Assembly (NCBI RefSeq): GCF_964213995.1 | Contig: NC_135830.1 | Location: 9,486,001-9,550,000, forward strand | Direction of reading: 5' to 3' | From: Mustelus asterias | Taxonomy: Eukaryota | DNA: 64,000 bases | In this document: positions 4,355 to 29,646 of the stretch, one piece after another | Numbering within the stretch: the first letter of the stretch is position 1 | How the letters are laid out: every line of letters begins with the position of its first letter | Position numbers and translations under genes: made by a program | The notes under the pieces: model-generated | Database searches by the model: none | Told to the model about the DNA's origin: nothing | Seen by the model: only the letters and a program-made list of their open reading frames with translations

Positions 4355-4852
4355 TCATCAGGCACAAGTCAGGAGTATGATGGAATAGTCTGCTCTTGCC
4401 TTGGTAAGTGCAGCTCCATTAACATCCAAGAAGCTCTACACCGCCAAAGATAAAGCAGCCCTTCCAAAAACATTCACTCCTTCCACCACTGACGCACAGT
4501 GGCAGCCATGAGTAGCCTCTGCGCGATGCACTGCAGGAACTCACTGAGGTTCCTTCGACAGCACCCTTCAATTGCACGACCTCTACCATCTAGAAGAGTA
4601 GCAGAAAGACCACCACCTGGAGGTTCCCCTCCAAGTCACTCAGCATCCTGGCTTGGAAATATATCACTGTTCCTTCACTGTCGCTGTGTCAAAATCCTGA
4701 AACACCCTCTCGAGCAGCACTGTGGGTATACCTACATCACGGGGACTGACGCGGTTCAAGAAGGCAGCTCACCACCACCTTCTCAAGACCAATTCGGGAT
4801 GGACAATAAATGCCGTTCCAGCCTGCGACACCCACACCTTGTGAGAGAATAA
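4355..4852 (+). mobile_element. 3' fragment of a second LINE family (CR1-group RT C-terminus and tail)
   Basis: GGCACAAGTCAGGAGT.TGATGGAATA ... GAAGGCAGCTCACCACCACCTTCTCAAG ... AATAAATGC; same family at 47433-48085 and 49797-50400. Confidence 0.7.
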
Positions 4853-4909
4853 AAATAGATCTTTGCTTGCAGCCAGCTGCTCGAGTTACGAATCTCTTTT
4901 TCACACTAG

Positions 4910-5209
4910 GTACTGCTGGGGAGCTGCAGATTTGCCTCGAGAGAAAGCAGCCCAGCAGTGGGACATGCAAAGTGGAACTGATGTGTTCCAGCTTGCGTGA
5001 CTCGGCTGTTGAGTGGTTCAGAGGGAACAAGAAGGTTATCAGTGATCAGAGGCATGAGCTGCAGTTTGGTGGGATGATTTTGGATGTCACACTCGATTCT
5101 CAGCTTGGAGAAACGGTTTATAAATGCAAGGAAGCTGCAGGAGGAGTCGAGCAGACTGTTGATTTGGGAGAAACCTGTGGCTACAGCAACACTATCAAAA
5201 TTCTACCAG
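4910..5209 (+). CDS. Ig C2-type domain exon of a CD2/SLAM-family-like receptor
   Basis: Acceptor ttttcacactag, donor G|gtaac, 300 nt, phase 1-1; GTCKVELMCSS..VEWFRG..YKC..ETC with the extra Cys pair typical of SLAM membrane-proximal domains; upstream exons not found in the window. Confidence 0.75.
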
Positions 5210-5487
5210 GTAACAACTATCATTTTACTACATCTCAAATGCATGGACAAATCCTTGCTATTCAGTGACGTTACCCACACTGAATCCTCCCCCGCCCCCA
5301 TGTCCTGGGGGTTGATGATCAATTCTACCACTGTCACTGTAATATATCCTGCGTCATGATATATGGAGGGATACTGCTCAGACACTCTGAAACCGTCTTG
5401 TATCAATTAACTCGCCTGCTAACTCCCCAAAATCTGTCCACCATCTTGGAGGCACAACATCAGGAGTGTGAATTTTTTTTTTCATTC

Positions 5488-21639: not shown

Positions 21640-22917
21640 GCAAGCTATACTTCCACTCTGGAAGAGGATTTCACATACTGCAGAGTTACAAATTGAGGGA
21701 ATATCATATGGAAATATCTCAGACCATTCATTATTCTATCACTTGCAGGAGTGGCAATTATGTCGCTATCCAAATAGCAAGGACAGTGAAGGAATAAAAA
21801 TACCAAAAATGTATTAATTGCATACGTATGTTGCCAAACATGAGTGTTAAACTGCTACTTTGGTAAATGAAAACTTCAAGTCATCTGTTTTCGGGGATAC
21901 AACAATTATTTCCAATCCACTTGTAAAACTTAACACTGCTGTAGACTCTGTATATTCTTACTGAAATAATTTGAAGCATAATCCAAAAAAAAATTCTAGT
22001 GGTGTTGATCGTATGCAGAGCGCTGCAGAATTGTGAAAGAATTGAATTACCATGAAGGCATATTTAAAGTATATTGCAGCCACATAATATTATGCATTGT
22101 CATGAATTTGCTCTACAATTTTCAAACAAGTTATTAATTCTGCGATCGCAGTAATAAATTGTTCAGAATGAGGGTCATAAGCCATGAATTAGTTGAATCA
22201 GCAGTTACTACAAAAATAAAGAAATACATTAAAAATATATAGTTTAATTTCTGAAATCTGCCTGTTCTCTGCCTACAACCATGTTTCCAAAAGTTTCAAA
22301 TCAATAGAGGGATGGTATCCAAAAGATGTAACTGCTCAGTGCCACTGAGTTTAAACAATGCCGAAACGCCATAGCGTTTCACAATTTTTAACATTTCAGA
22401 GTCACCCAGAAACAATCTCCTCAGCAGCAAAAACATAAATCGCATCACTCAGGGGAGTAAACCCCTTTCAGAGAGAAACAGCTCAATTCTGCAAACAGAC
22501 AAACAGAATCAAGTGCAACATTGCAAAATAATCTCAATATAAAATGCAGCAAAACAGCTCATCATTACGTAATAAATTAAAGGTTAAACTGACGATTTTA
22601 ATGGAGGAATTGAAACTGAATTTAGTGTAGTTGGATCATATTAAATATATAAATTCATATTAAGCAAATACATATCGAAATTTTAGCACATTTTTCAGCT
22701 TGTGTCATACTTCAAACATGATAAAATCTGCAGCGATTAGATGTCATCGAAAATAAACATTTTTGTAATGCCCAACTGTTTAAAAGATTTCATGTATTTA
22801 AAGTTAGCCAGTCACACAGCTGCATATCAACAGCAAATCACAACAAAAGGGGACTGGATCCCTCCGCTAAAACATTTGTCAAGAAACAGCGGAATTCTGC
22901 ATCCCCTTTTCATCTGA

Positions 22918-23043
22918 ATCACATGAGTCATTCCAAAAAAATCACAAATCAGAATCCACCCAACCACATTTCAGTGAATTAATATTATTAAAATAGACCA
23001 AAATGTAAAACAGAGACTCAGAAAAAATTACTTAATAAATGGC
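22918..23043. repeat. Direct repeat copy 1 (in the J-side intron of the IgH gene)
   Basis: ATCACATGAGTCATTC...CTTAATAAATGGC, aligns with 23428-23551. Confidence 0.95.
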
Positions 23044-23053
23044 TGCTTCTTAC

Positions 23054-23415
23054 CTGAAGTTACAGTCACCTTGGGGTCCCCTGTCCCCAGGATCCATGGT
23101 AACCACTGCTATCTTTTGCACAGTAATAGATTGCGGTGTCTTCGCTCTTGAGGCTCCCCATGTCCAAAGCGAAGATATTGTTTGAAATGTTTTTGCTCGC
23201 AATAAATCGATTCTGAATCGCAGTGGCGTATTCCCTGGTCGATAAACTAAAGTAGTAAATCAACAATTCCAACCCCTGTTGCGGAACCTGTCGGATCCAG
23301 TGCATGCCGTCGCTTCCAAGATCGAAGCCGCTCGTATTATAGGTCAGTCTCAGGCAGCCTCCGGGATGCCCGACCGCTGCCTCGGACTGACTCAACACAA
23401 CATCCGACTGGACAC
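23054..23415 (-). pseudogene. Germline-joined immunoglobulin heavy-chain VDJ exon (IgM-type VH), defective
   Basis: tacag|[75 protein letters not shown]; no RSS; first Cys replaced by Tyr; 2-nt insertion before (K)VTVTS; donor G|gtaag. Confidence 0.93.
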
Positions 23416-23427
23416 CTGTAAAAATAT

Positions 23428-23551
23428 ATCACATGAGTCATTCAAAAAAACACAAAACAGAATCCACCCAAACACATTTCAGTGAATTAATCAATTATTA
23501 AAATAGTTCAAAATGTAAAACAGACTCAGAAAAAGTGACTTAATAAATGGC
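23428..23551. repeat. Direct repeat copy 2 (in the leader intron of the IgH gene)
   Basis: Aligns with 22918-23043. Confidence 0.95.
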
Positions 23552-23658
23552 CCCGAGGACTAATCTTTGTCAAATAATTGCTGACTCTGGAATATTCCAG
23601 AGATAGACTAACACTGAGACAGTGACATTGAGAGACTTTGACAATAAAAACTACTCAC

Positions 23659-23704
23659 CCGACAAGAAAGCCAGCAGCAAAATAATATAAATCGCCGCGC
23701 TCAT
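23659..23704 (-). pseudogene. IgH leader exon MSAAIYIILLLAFLS(G)
   Basis: 46 nt, G|gtgagt donor, splices in phase to GVQS; TATTTAAAT box ~95 bp upstream. Confidence 0.9.
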
Positions 23705-26700
23705 CCTTCTGAGAATTTGGGGGAAATGGTTGTGTCAGGAAATCAGTGAACAAACCACCTCCCGGACTGTTGGATTCCGGTCCCAGTGAGCGCCATTTAA
23801 ATACCCGGCAGAAGGGTGCGGCTTTCCAGGCGCCGCCTATTGATTCCCTGGTGGAGGTGGCAACTGGATCCACGTCCCACCTTCCACTACCCCAACAGAG
23901 TGGACTCCAAGGTTTACAATAGATTATTATTAAAATTGACATTTTATATGTATCGGGATATGGTTTGACTGAATGGACTCATTCTAATCCGCTGGTCCCA
24001 TTACTGAAACTGCATTTGCGCATCTGTTAATAAAGAAAACGAAGTTCCATGGCAAAGTGTCCCTGCTTCCCTACACCGTTAGGTAATGAACTGAATATAA
24101 AAACGAGTAAAATACTTGAGGATGGAATGGGGCGTCTGTCGTGTCTAATTTGCAACCGGTCTCTATCTGATCACAACAATGAAGTATCATCTATCAGACG
24201 AATTGTGATCCATTTATGTAACTAAATGCGGGGGGGGGGGGGGGGTGAACAAAGTGATTCTATTTAAAATGTGAATGGCGATCCTTATGCATTTTGGATC
24301 TGCAAATAACAAGAGCCACCTCATTTTCTTTTACATTATTGCTCCTTACATTTGTCGAACTGCCCCTGAGCCTAACATGGCCCTGTGCCATTAGCACGCT
24401 TGCCTGATATTTAACTAGTGAGTTGACAGAGAAATATTTACATTTACATCAGCATCTGACACGAAGTTAATGAATCGGAACGGTTACGCGATCAGTAAAA
24501 TTCTCCTTCGGCATCCAAATCATTGCAGCTTATTTGATCGGCTGTCTAACATTCACTGATGTTGGGAGCACAGGATATCAGGACTTTGCGGCATATTACA
24601 CAATATCACAAGAATAAATGTGTTACATTCCACTGAAGCATATTTCTCCACTCATTCGCAGCACCCGTACTTCACTAAATTACTATTAAACGGGCTTTAA
24701 GAACGAGCATACTCTTGATTTGGAAATTCTATGAATTAAATCGTGTCCTCGTTCTAATGTCCTTGAGGGAAGAAATCTGCTGTCCTTACCTGGTCTGGCC
24801 TATATGTGACTCCAGAGCCACAGCAATGTGGTTGACTCTCAACTGCCCTCCAAGCGTGACTGGAGAAGGGCAATTAATGCTGGCCCGCCAGTGGTGCCCA
24901 TGTCCCATGAATGCATAAGAAAATGTTAAATGTTCAAGTTACTATTTTATCATCTTGTTTAATCTCAAAGTGGACACGATTGTCACTGAATAAATTTCTT
25001 CAGATGGAATACCATTTAAATCTGCCATTGCTGTGCAGCTGAAACGTTTATTATTTGAATAGATAGATCCCATTTTGATCATTCATATTTACGTTAATCT
25101 GCCCCGCACGGTATTTAAAAGCAACCCAGCCGACTGCAGTCAGGGAGGCTGGAAAGTCCGATGTCAACAACAGGAAGCAACTGGGGTGTTTGTGCAGTAA
25201 ATAAAATATCTGTTTGCTCAGTATTGGCCACTTGGCTGCCAGCCAGCTTCGAACATTTAACATCGTCAATGACGTCTATTTATAAAGAAATCTACCCAAC
25301 GACAACGCTGGTGATAATCTTATATTTTTAGATTGTGAACGGATGCGAAGTGTTCCGATTTCCAAGAAAAGAGAAGTTATTCAATTTGTGTTGTCCCTCT
25401 TAGCTACAACAGTCCTATGGAGGATCGCGCCAACAGATTATAACATTTGATGGATGTTTTGATGGTGAACAGGAAATACAAGCAGGCTACAAGGCACAGG
25501 ATACATTTGGAAGAGTTAGTCATATTGCCCTCCATCTGGAGACAAATGTAGTTGAGTCCAGGGTACGATGGAGGATTCAGTTCACTGGTGGATCAGAGAG
25601 GTTCCCATCGTAACTGTTAGTCGGTATTCCAAATTCTACTCAAATTGCCTTCAAATTCACCAGCTACTCTGATGGGATTTGTTCCCATATCGCCACAGCA
25701 TTAACCCGGCATCTCGATTACTGGTCCAATTCCATTAAAAATATGCCACTGTCGGCCCGAAAAAATAAAGAGGTGACGGGGGTAATGTAACAAACAGTGA
25801 CATTTGGATGCCAGGCCATTTTGTTTCTGGAATCAATGAATGAATTGATGGATATATCCATAGACGGGCCCGAAAGACGTTGTTCGACATTCTCCTCTTT
25901 GTTCTCCAGTACTTCATTAATTGAACCAGGTCCTTTATTTCATCTGTGTCGACTACCTTCATTCCTTCCAGAGTTTTTCAACGAATTCAATCCCCAGACT
26001 ATCAGGAAATATCGACTGTCCATCACCAGGAGATATTCCTGCTCTTCTGCTGATTCTTCCACTGCTGATGGTGAATCTTCATCTCAAGGACAGAAAGAGG
26101 GAACATGAATAGTATGTCGACGGAGGGTTGTAATATCTGGACCATATGGTTGTTTCATGTACAACAAATCACTCAGCATATGTTCGCCCAAAATAGTAAA
26201 GCTGACAGACGAAAAACTTAATGATGTGGCAATGTAACTATTGGGCAGCTGACATTGTTTAATTACGTCCCAAAACAGAGTGATAATCAATAAAAATTAA
26301 AGATTCATTGTCGTTACAATCACCATACACTCCAGTTAGATATCAGCAGTTTCTGTGATTATAGAATCCCGACAGTGCAGAGAGAGGCCATTCGGCCTAT
26401 CAAGCCTGCACCAACAACAATCCCACCCAGGCCCTATCCCCGTAACCCATGTATTTACCGTCCTAATCACCTTGTGTACGTGTGTGTGTGTGAATGAAAG
26501 AGAGAAATTGCGTGTGGTGTGAATAGCTCTCTCTCTCTCCTTCAAATTCACTGTCATCACCAACTTCTCAAACAAACTATGACACATGCCTTTGTAAACG
26601 ACCATCCGATCAACCATTCCTCACTAAAGCCCTTGGATGTTTTACCTTTCTAATTGTGTATAGTAACGTTTGTTTTTATTCAGAATCTGTGGAATCTTAT

Positions 26701-27465: not shown

Positions 27466-29646
27466 ATGCATGGGCGAATAACTGGTGTAGTTTATGGCAT
27501 TTACTATCCAATTATTGCTGCCATTGGGGTTCCGGGTAAGTCATTCTACTAAATCATTAACTTGACGTGCCGCTGTTTTATGAAGTAAGTGCTGAACATG
27601 GCAATAAAGAACATGACATAATTGTTTCCAGGTATCTTCCAAAACCTTATTTGCTCAGTGGTATCCTATCATTTCATCATTTAATTATGCATTTTATTGA
27701 TGAGAAGCGAAAAATGGTATATATTGACGGGAGTTTCAAAGAGTGAGAGGCGACCTCGTTGAAAGAGAATTCTCAGCAGGCTCTTACTCATGAAGTCTCT
27801 GACACATTCAATACTCTGTGGCTGATCTTGCCAGCATGCATGAACGGAAGCGAGGCTGTTCATGTTTTTGAAACGTATAGTTGCTGTGAGAATACGTTTA
27901 CAGCAATACAAACTTTGGGCATGATTCCACAATCACCGGACACAACATCCCAGTATATACTCTGTCAAGCCTGCTGAGAATTCTCTTTCAACGAGGTGGC
28001 CTCTCATTCTTTGAAACTCCAGTCAATATATACCATGTTTCACTTCTCATCATGGAACAATTCATATCATTGCTCAGTAGAATGGAAACTGCTGTTTCCA
28101 AGCCAGCAAGATTTCTGATGCAAACCATCTGATGCTCCTTAAATTGTATTAACTTGACACACCCAACTACTGAAAAGATTCCCGTGGAATTCCAACAAGC
28201 CAAACTGAATCCTTATCACATTATACAGTTTAACAATGCAACTGTAACTGATATGTCAACCGTATCTACAGACTATTTCGTTTATGGGATACATGATACA
28301 AAGGTTGAATGTCAAATTTCGTATACAATCTGGGGATCTTCAGCCTTTCAGTCCTTAACTTTGCAATTATTGCCCGGAATCACATTGCCTTTCTTTCTCA
28401 CTCCGTTCCTCACATGCTTTCCTTAAGCGTATTTCGTCGTCCAGTTATTCAGCATTTAACATAATTAATATCTGCTCCTGTTGTTAGATGTCAAATTGTA
28501 CTGCAGCACTTTCCTGTTAAGAGACTTGGGAAACCTTTTGCCTTAAAGGTGCGACAGAACTGGAGGTTGCCCTTGTAGCTCTTTCTGAAACACAATTGAC
28601 CTTGAAAAAAAACAAGAATAGCCGTCTCTTCTAACGAAGGTGAACTGGCAAACATGTCCAAATAGGTCTGTCACACCCAAGTGCTTGTTTGGAATTCGTT
28701 GAATAACTTTACAACTTTAATTTTCTTTTTCCTCTCAGTTAACGTGGTGGCGATTGTGATTCTGTCCCGAGGAAGGTGTGGTCTCTCCAAATGCATTACT
28801 CGGTATCTGATTGCCATGGCAGTGACGGATCTCCTTGTCGTTGTCGTCGCTGTGATATTCAATCGGATTATTGGCATTTATTTTCCAGTAAGTTTTATGT
28901 CGTTGACTCCAGCCTGTACTCTGAGTTCTGTGATAATCTATGCAATCATGGAGTGTTCTGTTTGGCTAACCTTATTTTTCACCTTTGATCGTTATGTAGC
29001 CATTTGCTGCCAGAAATTGCGTACAAACTATTGCACTGAAAAAACAGCGGATGTGGTGATAGGAACGGTTTGTTTGTTGAACTGTTTGAAAAGGATTCCG
29101 TCGTACTTTATATATGAGCCAGTCTATATAGTGAACAATGTGCCTTGGTTTTGCAAGATAAAATCAACCTACTACACTTCCTTCTCATGGGCAGTCTATG
29201 ACTGGTTTGCACGTGTATTAAATCCTATTCTGCCTTTCCTTCTGATTTTGTCATTTAATGCATTGACCGTGAGACACATCCTGGCGGCCAATAGATCCCG
29301 CCAGAGACTCCGGACTCACAGCAGTGCAGAGAATCAGAATGATCCAGAAATGAAGAACAGGAAGAAGTCTATTGTTTTACTTTTCACCATCTCGGGGAGC
29401 TTTATTCTGTTGTGGATGACATACATTGTGGATTTCCTCTATGTGAAAATTACAAATGAATCTTATTTCGCAGGGTCCAATTTCAACGACCCCAAATTCA
29501 TTCGCCAGGAAAGCGGAAACATGCTTCAGCTGCTGAGCTGTTGCACTAACACGTGTATTTATGCAGTGACGCAGAGGAAATTCAGAGAGGAGTTAAAAAA
29601 TGCAGCAAAATATCTTGGCAGTCTCATTGTAAAAATAGTAAAGTAG
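27466..29646 (+). CDS. Class A GPCR, GPR139/GPR142-like; exons 27466-27535 and 28739-29646, 325 aa, intact
   Basis: Exon 1 MHGRITGVVYGIYYPIIAAIGVP G|gtaagt; acceptor ctctcag; NVVAIVILSRGRCGLSKC, YLIAMAVTDL, FTFDRYVAICC, DPEMKNRKKSIVLL, SCCTNTCIY; 7 hydrophobic segments. Confidence 0.92.
27698..28052. repeat. Inverted repeat, ~85-bp arms (27698-27782 and 27968-28052), inside the GPCR intron
   Basis: GGAGTTTCAAAGAGTGAGAGGCGACCTCGTTGAAAGAGAATTCTCAGCAGGCT and its reverse complement. Confidence 0.9.

What the first reader, a model, noticed from the sequence alone, without database searches (positions are those of the whole stretch)
22918..23551. Joined VDJ exon is bracketed by ~125-bp direct repeats
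Seen: the same sequence lies 12 nt before the exon start (inside the 243-nt leader intron) and 10 nt after the exon end, 510 bp apart, diverged by roughly 10% by eye. Leader introns and J-C introns are normally unrelated. Inference: a footprint of how this VDJ was built or moved (tandem duplication then deletion, template switch, or integration of a circular VDJ copy by homology). Recombination between the repeats would excise the exon with both splice sites as a cassette.
Basis: partly seen in the sequence, partly recalled or inferred. Interest (0 to 1): 0.7.

Follow-up and report, generated by a model that had tools for sequence, protein, structure and literature searches.

The report
Copied intron patch, dead shark IgM
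In a broken, pre-assembled shark antibody gene, 120 bases from just behind the variable exon also stand in the intron in front of it, most likely as the scar of one old local copy-and-patch DNA repair event and not as a working excision cassette.

Summary
The repeat is real: 22918-23043 and 23428-23551, 89.8% over 128 columns, 10 and 12 nt from a germline-joined IgM VDJ exon. The copies are not equivalent. The post-J copy is ordinary J-C intron, with homologues at 23 of 23 other hits, all downstream of an IgH V or J. The leader copy is a 120-nt insertion that replaced about 5 nt; one junction has 4-nt microhomology, the other 0-1 nt. It groups with this gene's own post-J sequence (99/98). It occurs in two paralogues (four places in the assembly) and in contigs of a second organism label, so it is neither mis-assembly nor a transposon. 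Both paralogues are broken. Two other fully joined VDJ exons have no bracket, no excised allele was found, and the longest perfect match is 19 nt. Best reading: one local templated insertion, probably neutral (about 0.6). Rivals: tandem duplication plus deletion (0.2) and patching from the gene's own RNA (0.1). A link to RAG joining is unsupported, but the order of events could not be dated. The scan's notes hold no look-alike.

The parts
23659..23704 (-). IgM VH leader exon (ATG at 23704-23702)
   Evidence: sequence, alignment with 11 other IgM loci, coordinates
23552..23658 (-). native 5' part of the leader intron (107 nt)
   Evidence: aligns with leader introns of other IgM clusters up to the insertion point
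23432..23551 (-). 120-nt insertion copied from the start of this gene's J-C intron; replaces about 5 nt of a T run; contains a branch-point-like CTCAT with its A 19 nt before the acceptor (consensus recalled, function not tested)
   Evidence: absent from all 26 other locus rows scanned; groups with own post-J copies; read joints of other IgM genes skip exactly this stretch (table 5)
23428..23431 (-). TGAT microhomology shared by the native leader-intron end and the post-J donor (3' junction)
   Evidence: chance of 4 or more shared bases about 0.02
23416..23427 (-). native 3' end of the leader intron with the AG acceptor
23054..23415 (-). germline-joined IgM VDJ exon, broken: Tyr in place of the first V-domain Cys (codon 23341-23339) and a frameshift in J with an in-frame stop at 23068-23066
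   Evidence: Pfam V-set; 61-65% identity to named shark IgM/Ig heavy chains
23044..23053 (-). J splice donor and first 10 nt of the J-C intron, not included in the copy
22918..23043 (-). native post-J copy of the repeat (donor of the insertion)
   Evidence: homologues after J in other IgM clusters at 71-84%
21743..22917 (-). remainder of the J-C intron up to the point where homology to the paralogue ends; no C-mu exon in the 43 kb downstream of the exon

Best explanation
The bracket is a 120-base copy of this antibody gene's own post-J intron standing in its leader intron, most likely made in one germ-line repair or replication slip and likely without function. Shown: the post-J copy is native and the leader copy is extra; about 5 nt were lost at the site; the 3' junction has 4 nt of microhomology and the 5' junction 0-1 nt; the donor lineage is this gene; both carriers are pseudogenes. 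Inferred: a break or stalled fork about 16-21 nt upstream of the V acceptor; the V-side end annealed through TGAT to the template about 510 nt away (about 1.7 kb if the gene was still unjoined), copied 120 nt and was rejoined to the leader-side end (FoSTeS x2 / serial slippage / abortive synthesis-dependent repair). The event likely came shortly before the duplication that made the two paralogues. It was likely tolerated because donor and acceptor stayed intact and the gene was probably already decaying.
For: Native versus derived: leader introns measure 120-140 nt in 25 of 26 other locus rows (one not measured) against 243/226 nt here, and 0 of 26 have an internal repeat. 23 of 23 non-family hits of the segment lie downstream of an IgH V or J: 14 fetched, 9 placed by coordinates next to V hits. 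Cis origin: leader and own post-J copies form one group, 99/98, against 12 outgroup rows 21-32% away; the next-best J-C intron in the genome is 67-68% identical. Junctions. One event explains why the two new junctions lie only about 5 nt apart on the ancestral leader intron. Age: both post-J copies share a 2-nt deletion and one substitution that the leader copy lacks (columns 66-67 and 103). Neutrality: V exon pN 0.065 versus pS 0.047 between paralogues, and pN/pS of about 0.8-1.1 against ordinary IgM V. FoSTeS junctions carry 2-5 nt microhomology (PMC2583991, passages); class 2 templated insertions show microdeletion and microhomology and no target-site duplication (PMC5110952, passages).
Against: Sequence alone cannot separate one two-switch event from a duplication followed by a deletion: the end product is the same. 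120 nt in direct orientation from at least 390 nt away is outside the typical Pol-theta insertion (3-30 bp, PMC7165422 passages) and outside the MMB-TI search definition (inverted, within 100 bp, PMC8421209 passages), so the enzyme is not identified. The model does not explain why the copy stops 10 nt from the J donor. Sharing by both paralogues is weak evidence of age, because their 5' flanks, including the leader copy, are more alike (1.4-2.7%) than exon and J-C intron (6.3%); only two characters date it.
Confidence: 0.6

Rival explanations
1. Two steps: a head-to-tail duplication of the 510-nt unit (TGAT to TGAT, holding the joined exon), then deletion of about 395 nt that removed the first exon copy with both splice sites and left its 3' flank.
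For: The TGAT junction is what a microhomology-primed tandem duplication would leave. A two-V transcript could have been selected against, which would favour loss of one exon (inference). The lineage shows several deletions.
Against: Needs two events, and the deletion must start within about 5 nt of the duplication junction, in a leader intron of about 125 nt. No intermediate among the hits.
Confidence: 0.2
2. RNA-templated patch: the V-side broken DNA end primed at TGAT on the gene's own pre-mRNA or J-C intron lariat, was reverse-transcribed towards the intron's 5' end and stopped 10 nt short of the splice donor, where U1 snRNP or the lariat branch would block it.
For: The copy is in sense orientation, the 4-nt microhomology is on the side that would prime on sense RNA, the far junction is nearly blunt, and the copy ends 10 nt from the 5' splice site. 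Templated insertions were enriched for transcribed sequence and fell more than three-fold under RT inhibitors (PMC5110952 section 5).
Against: The same polarity arises with the sense DNA strand as template. One event gives no statistics, and the 10-nt distance was noticed after the fact. Germ-line transcription of this gene is not shown. The published insertions came from distant donors.
Confidence: 0.1
3. Footprint of germ-line RAG joining, or of re-integration of a circular VDJ copy.
For: The bracket hugs a germline-joined exon. RAG-like joining in shark germ cells is documented (PMC2193156 section 21). The order of join and insertion could not be established.
Against: Junctions are in introns, not at RSS; a scan of 21701-24200 found 3 weak RSS-like sites, none at a junction. 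0 of 2 other fully joined exons (L005, L069) and none of 5 distinct clusters with shortened V-J distance has a bracket. Promoter, leader and J-C intron are native and collinear with other clusters. The repeat was created by the event, so it cannot have served as integration homology.
Confidence: 0.05
4. A functional cassette: recombination between the repeats excises the exon to switch the gene off or to release a V-less transcript.
For: Geometry: a crossover in the repeats would remove 508-510 bp with both splice sites.
Against: Longest perfect match 19 nt, against a 20-fold drop in mammalian intrachromosomal recombination already at 134 bp (PMC2583991 passage; not measured in sharks). The copies diverge freely and one paralogue lost 17 nt from its leader copy. 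No empty allele and no 508-510 skip among contigs of 4 runs (contigs drop rare variants). The third paralogue lost the exon by a 3.3-kb deletion that ends far outside the repeats. Both carriers are pseudogenes.
Confidence: 0.02
5. A small transposon inserted twice, or a local mis-assembly.
For: None found.
Against: All 31 genome hits lie in IgH clusters; there is no target-site duplication. The arrangement stands in four places on three contigs, and contigs of a second sample and a second organism label bridge the junctions.
Confidence: 0.01

Closest known systems
Class 2 templated sequence insertion polymorphisms (Onozawa and Aplan, PMC5110952; passages and section 5 seen)
   Same: Donor intact, no target-site duplication, no poly(A), microdeletion and microhomology at the junctions, germ-line origin; 120 nt lies within the 73-414 bp of the experimental insertions.
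   Different: The donor is the same gene about 0.4-0.5 kb away, not a distant region; fixed and shared by paralogues, not shown to be polymorphic.
FoSTeS x2 / serial replication slippage (Gu, Zhang and Lupski review, PMC2583991; passages seen)
   Same: Two template switches with short microhomology can put a nearby segment in direct orientation at a new place.
   Different: FoSTeS was defined on 120-550 kb jumps; one junction here has only 0-1 nt of microhomology; the mechanism is not testable here.
Pol-theta templated insertions (PMC7165422) and MMB-TI (PMC8421209); passages seen
   Same: Locally templated, AT-rich, direct-repeat class exists for Pol theta; MMB-TIs occur as germ-line variants.
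   Different: Pol-theta insertions are 3-30 bp; MMB-TIs were searched as inverted copies within 100 bp. This one is 120 nt, direct, from at least 390 nt away.
Germline-joined elasmobranch IgH clusters, including nurse shark IgM1gj (reviews PMC4279169 and PMC5192425, passages; Lee et al. 2000 PMC2193156 for light chains)
   Same: VDJ fused in the germ line with leader and J-C introns kept; the paralogue also lacks C-mu2.
   Different: This lineage is broken; the paralogue lacks C-mu1 as well as C-mu2 and this copy has no C region. No bracket is described in the passages seen. Orthology to IgM1gj was not tested: the primary paper was not held.

Membership tests
Local templated insertion (class 2 TSI-like) | Insert has an intact donor elsewhere and is absent from the ancestral site | tested here: met
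Local templated insertion (class 2 TSI-like) | No target-site duplication or poly(A); microdeletion and microhomology at junctions | tested here: met
   about 5 nt lost, TGAT shared, 0-1 nt at the other side; the ancestral site is inferred from paralogues 17-20% away
Local templated insertion (class 2 TSI-like) | Donor is a distant genomic region, as in the published class | tested here: not met
   donor is the same gene; it works like this class but is not filed in it
Local templated insertion (class 2 TSI-like) | Made in a single event, from DNA or RNA | not testable with these tools
   end product is the same under duplication plus deletion
Pol-theta TINS | 3-30 bp copied from break-flanking DNA | tested here: not met
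   120 nt from at least 390 nt away
Transposable element | Dispersed copies outside one gene family, TSD or terminal repeats | tested here: not met
   31 of 31 hits in IgH clusters; the search skips very common words, so this is not an absolute count
RAG-mediated excision or transposition product | RSS heptamer/nonamer at the breakpoints, 3-5 bp target duplication | tested here: not met
   (consensus recalled); target-duplication criterion from PMC2193156 passage
Germline-joined IgM VDJ gene | V, D and J fused without RSS, introns kept, present in germ-line DNA | tested here: met
   same join in four assembly places and in contigs of other runs
Germline-joined IgM VDJ gene | Open frame and C-mu exons (functional member) | tested here: not met
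   frameshift and no C-mu here; stop in FR1 and no C-mu1/2 in the paralogue
IgM1gj | Joined VDJ with C-mu1, C-mu3, C-mu4 (C-mu2 missing) | tested here: not met
   paralogue has C-mu3 and C-mu4 only
IgM1gj | Orthology by sequence and neonatal expression | not tested
   no IgM1gj sequence was returned; primary paper not held
Recombination cassette between direct repeats | Long uninterrupted identity and detectable excised alleles or circles | tested here: not met
   19 nt longest match; no empty allele

The most novel reading that the evidence does not exclude
The insertion is a fossil of RNA-templated break repair in the shark germ line: the broken leader intron was patched by reverse transcription of the same gene's own J-C intron RNA, primed at TGAT and stopped 10 nt from the splice donor by the spliceosome or lariat. 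That would mean a joined IgM gene was transcribed in germ cells or early embryos, the openness that RAG would need to join these genes in the germ line.
Probability: 0.1. Interest if true: 0.6.

Novelty: new member of a known kind. Interest (0 to 1): 0.2.

Why it matters
If the best reading holds, it matters little: one neutral repair scar in a pseudogene, useful as a lineage marker for this divergent joined-IgM family across related sharks. If the RNA-patch reading held, it would be a natural heritable case of cis RNA-templated repair and indirect evidence that Ig loci are transcribed in shark germ cells, which bears on how germline-joined genes arise. A side result may deserve more attention than the repeat: the paralogue is a joined VDJ followed by C-mu3 and C-mu4 only.

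Tried and rejected
TE: rejected. Mis-assembly: rejected. General homology of leader and J-C introns in shark IgM: rejected, 0 of 26 other locus rows. Cryptic RSS at the junctions: none. An older ~410-bp period in the J-C intron suggested (families D2, D9) gave only a 20-nt match at E 0.018 and was not pursued. Empty allele: the third paralogue (C138/C112) lacks the exon, but its deletion runs from window-equivalent 25375 to 22087, outside both repeats. Germ-line hypermutation as the cause of the divergence step at the exon: not supported; differences fall on both branches (30 and 40, 35 unresolved of 105) and adjacent substitutions are not above random placement (19 observed, 12.8 expected, P about 0.10), although their share is higher than upstream (Fisher P 0.015). 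One joint in run X5 (22898 to 23473, side 24, depth 3.3) does not fit an excision in register and was set aside. Organism C (run X6) holds pieces of the V and post-J but no contig across the insertion: inconclusive. No RNA holder listed. Protein searches: one search found nothing at E 1e-30; two searches returned ordinary shark Ig heavy chains and no IgM1gj. The pattern search for joined exons missed L069, so the count of joined genes is a lower bound. Rumfelt 2001 and Zhu 2012 were not held. PMC12941027 and PMC12227049 (passages) gave nothing on this feature. A closer second look at reads of related organisms was not obtained, so whether their orthologues are intact stays open. No supplements were read.

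Full report
Observation. The window holds, on the minus strand, an IgM heavy-chain leader exon (23704-23659), a 243-nt intron, and a 362-nt fused VDJ exon (23415-23054). The V is a Pfam V-set domain, 61-65% identical to named shark IgM/Ig heavy chains in 4 of 5 hits. The stretches 22918-23043 and 23428-23551 are 89.8% identical over 128 columns, far above 1000 shuffles (182 versus at most 32).

Which copy is native. A search of the own genome with 23800-22800 returned 78 matches from 40 scored candidates of 219. Four places hold the whole arrangement: the window (C71:9.51 Mb), C108 (about 99% identical over the flank, likely the other haplotype), and C71:17.39 Mb with C221 (99.97% to each other). 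In the other clusters the match breaks at the leader copy and resumes about 5 nt later. Of 30 fetched locus rows, 4 have the repeat and 26 do not (24 distinct places, many of them haplotype pairs; in 5 rows J lay outside the fetched stretch). Leader introns there measure 120-140 nt in the 25 rows measured. The segment itself gave 31 hits: 8 in this family and 23 at 71-84%. All 23 lie downstream of an IgH V or J: 14 fetched (a J or J donor directly in front in 12, L069 confirmed, L066 placed by its V only) and 9 placed by coordinates beside V hits. The post-J copy is therefore ordinary J-C intron and the leader copy is derived.

Junctions. Other leader introns end in CCTCGGG, a run of about five T, TGAT and twelve more bases to the acceptor. 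Here the T run is replaced by 120 nt (23551-23432) of post-J sequence. At the 3' junction TGAT is shared by target and donor; four or more shared bases have a chance of about 0.02 at this composition. At the 5' junction at most one G is shared. There is no target-site duplication or poly(A), and none of the 3 weak RSS-like sites in 21701-24200 lies at a junction (consensus recalled). The ancestral site is inferred from paralogues about 17% diverged, so the exact number of lost bases is approximate.

Donor and age. In a tree of 17 distinct rows, leader copies and own post-J copies form one group (99/98), 21-32% from 12 outgroup rows; the two leader copies are sisters (99/93). No other J-C intron in the search exceeds 68% (40 of 107 candidates scored). 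Leader versus own post-J differs at 8 of 123 and 13 of 106 columns in the two paralogues, and post-J versus post-J at 7 of 127. Both post-J copies share a 2-nt deletion and one substitution where the leader copy has the outgroup state, which places the copying shortly before the paralogue split and long after the split from ordinary IgM. Against this: the paralogues differ by 2.67% (254 of 9515) far upstream, 1.36% (9 of 664) across promoter and leader intron, and 6.31% (105 of 1663) from the exon onward (P about 1e-12). Their 5' flanks were probably homogenised, so mere sharing of the insertion does not date it.

Other runs. One search listed 8 runs, 7 holding part of the stretch, from 2 studies; I laid 4 of them (contigs only). 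A second sample of organism A bridges the 3' junction (23227-23504, 2 differences). Organism B bridges the 5' junction in two runs (23444-23623 and 23467-23623) and the 3' junction in one (23358-23473). Organism C is inconclusive. Contigs of other IgM genes skip 23431 to 23551-23556, as expected for introns without the insertion. No 508-510 skip was listed, but contigs drop rare variants.

State of the gene. The window copy has Tyr for the first Cys, a J frameshift with a stop, homology to the paralogue ending at about 21743, and no C-mu exon in 43 kb downstream by tblastn and nhmmer. The paralogue has a stop in FR1 and only C-mu3 and C-mu4 in 30 kb. A third paralogue (C138/C112) has the same two C exons and has lost promoter, leader and VDJ in a 3.3-kb deletion whose ends lie 1.8 kb and 0.8 kb outside the repeats. 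V pN is 0.065 and pS 0.047 between the two carriers (few sites). Two other fully joined exons with open frames, L005 (followed by C-mu1-4 and a transmembrane exon) and L069, have no bracket; nor do 5 distinct clusters with V-J distances of 754-1176 nt against the usual 1548-1590 (joining there not checked base by base).

Mechanism. Any model needs two new junctions. One break about 16-21 nt upstream of the acceptor, repaired by priming at TGAT on the post-J template, copying 120 nt and rejoining, gives both and explains why they lie about 5 nt apart on the ancestral intron (inference; 0.6). Tandem duplication of the 510-nt unit followed by loss of the first exon copy gives the same product in two steps (0.2). 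An RNA template would also explain why the copy stops 10 nt from the splice donor, but rests on one coincidence noticed afterwards (0.1). A RAG or circle-integration footprint lacks RSS and is not shared by other joined genes (0.05). A cassette lacks the identity and the products (0.02).

Comparison with print. Germ-line joining is known and attributed to RAG in germ cells (PMC2193156, passages and section 21; reviews PMC4279169 and PMC5192425, passages). IgM1gj lacks C-mu2 only, by those reviews. The junctions match class 2 templated insertions except for the local donor (PMC5110952, passages and section 5) and fit FoSTeS-type microhomology (PMC2583991, passages). The size excludes typical Pol-theta insertions (PMC7165422, passages) and the orientation differs from MMB-TI as searched (PMC8421209, passages). 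Searches for a described bracket showed none in listings or in the passages read (PMC2435157; PMC12227049). The library lacks most subscription papers, including Rumfelt 2001 and Zhu 2012, and I read no supplements, so this is no proof that it is unpublished. The scan's notes show other joined or half-joined Ig pseudogenes in this genome but no look-alike of this stretch.

Verdict. A real, correctly described repeat that is best read as an old local templated insertion in a decayed germline-joined IgM gene: a new instance of a known kind of mutation. Interest 0.2.

Noticed in passing
G000:C71:17.395-17.405 Mb (L004, L031) and C221 (L003, L045): The paralogue is a joined VDJ followed, about 8 kb on, by open C-mu3 and C-mu4 exons with intact splice sites and secretory tail; no trace of C-mu1 or C-mu2, and no transmembrane-exon motif in 30 kb. 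Possibly the relic of a heavy chain without CH1, or a further-decayed IgM1gj-like gene; its V now has a stop in FR1.
   Followed up: partly
window 33700-21750 versus G000:C71:17.383-17.397 Mb: Divergence between the paralogues steps from 1.4-2.7% to 6.3% at the start of the VDJ exon; both branches share the excess, which suggests gene conversion or crossover ending next to the insertion site.
   Followed up: partly
G000:C138:880-910 kb (L053-L056) and C112: Third paralogue without promoter, leader and VDJ (3.3-kb deletion) but with open C-mu3 and C-mu4, 96% like the other paralogue there and 87-92% upstream.
   Followed up: partly
window 23358-23473, runs X4 and X5: Organism B has a second, more diverged contig across the exon start and leader copy (11 differences, 3 gaps, depth 2.4) with two extra letters as in the post-J copy; a weak hint of another paralogue carrying an older state of the insertion.
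   Followed up: no
L005 (G000:C166:442.5-443.4 kb) and L069 (G000:C71:4.728 Mb): Two further germline-joined IgM VDJ exons with open frames; L005 has all four C-mu exons and a transmembrane exon, L069 is a divergent V (74% to the window). Candidates for functional pre-joined antibodies.
   Followed up: partly
window 28666-29643 (+): Single-exon 326-aa open frame of a rhodopsin-family 7TM receptor (Pfam 7tm_1), duplicated together with the IgM pseudogene in the segmental duplication.
   Followed up: partly
window 4810-5265 (+): 152-aa open stretch with an Ig-like Cys-Trp-Cys spacing but no Pfam hit and no similarity to C-mu exons.
   Followed up: no
L064 (G000:C444:176.1-178.4 kb): A J 3' end with donor and post-J intron joined to unrelated GC-rich sequence, with no V in the 1.8 kb upstream.
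   Followed up: no
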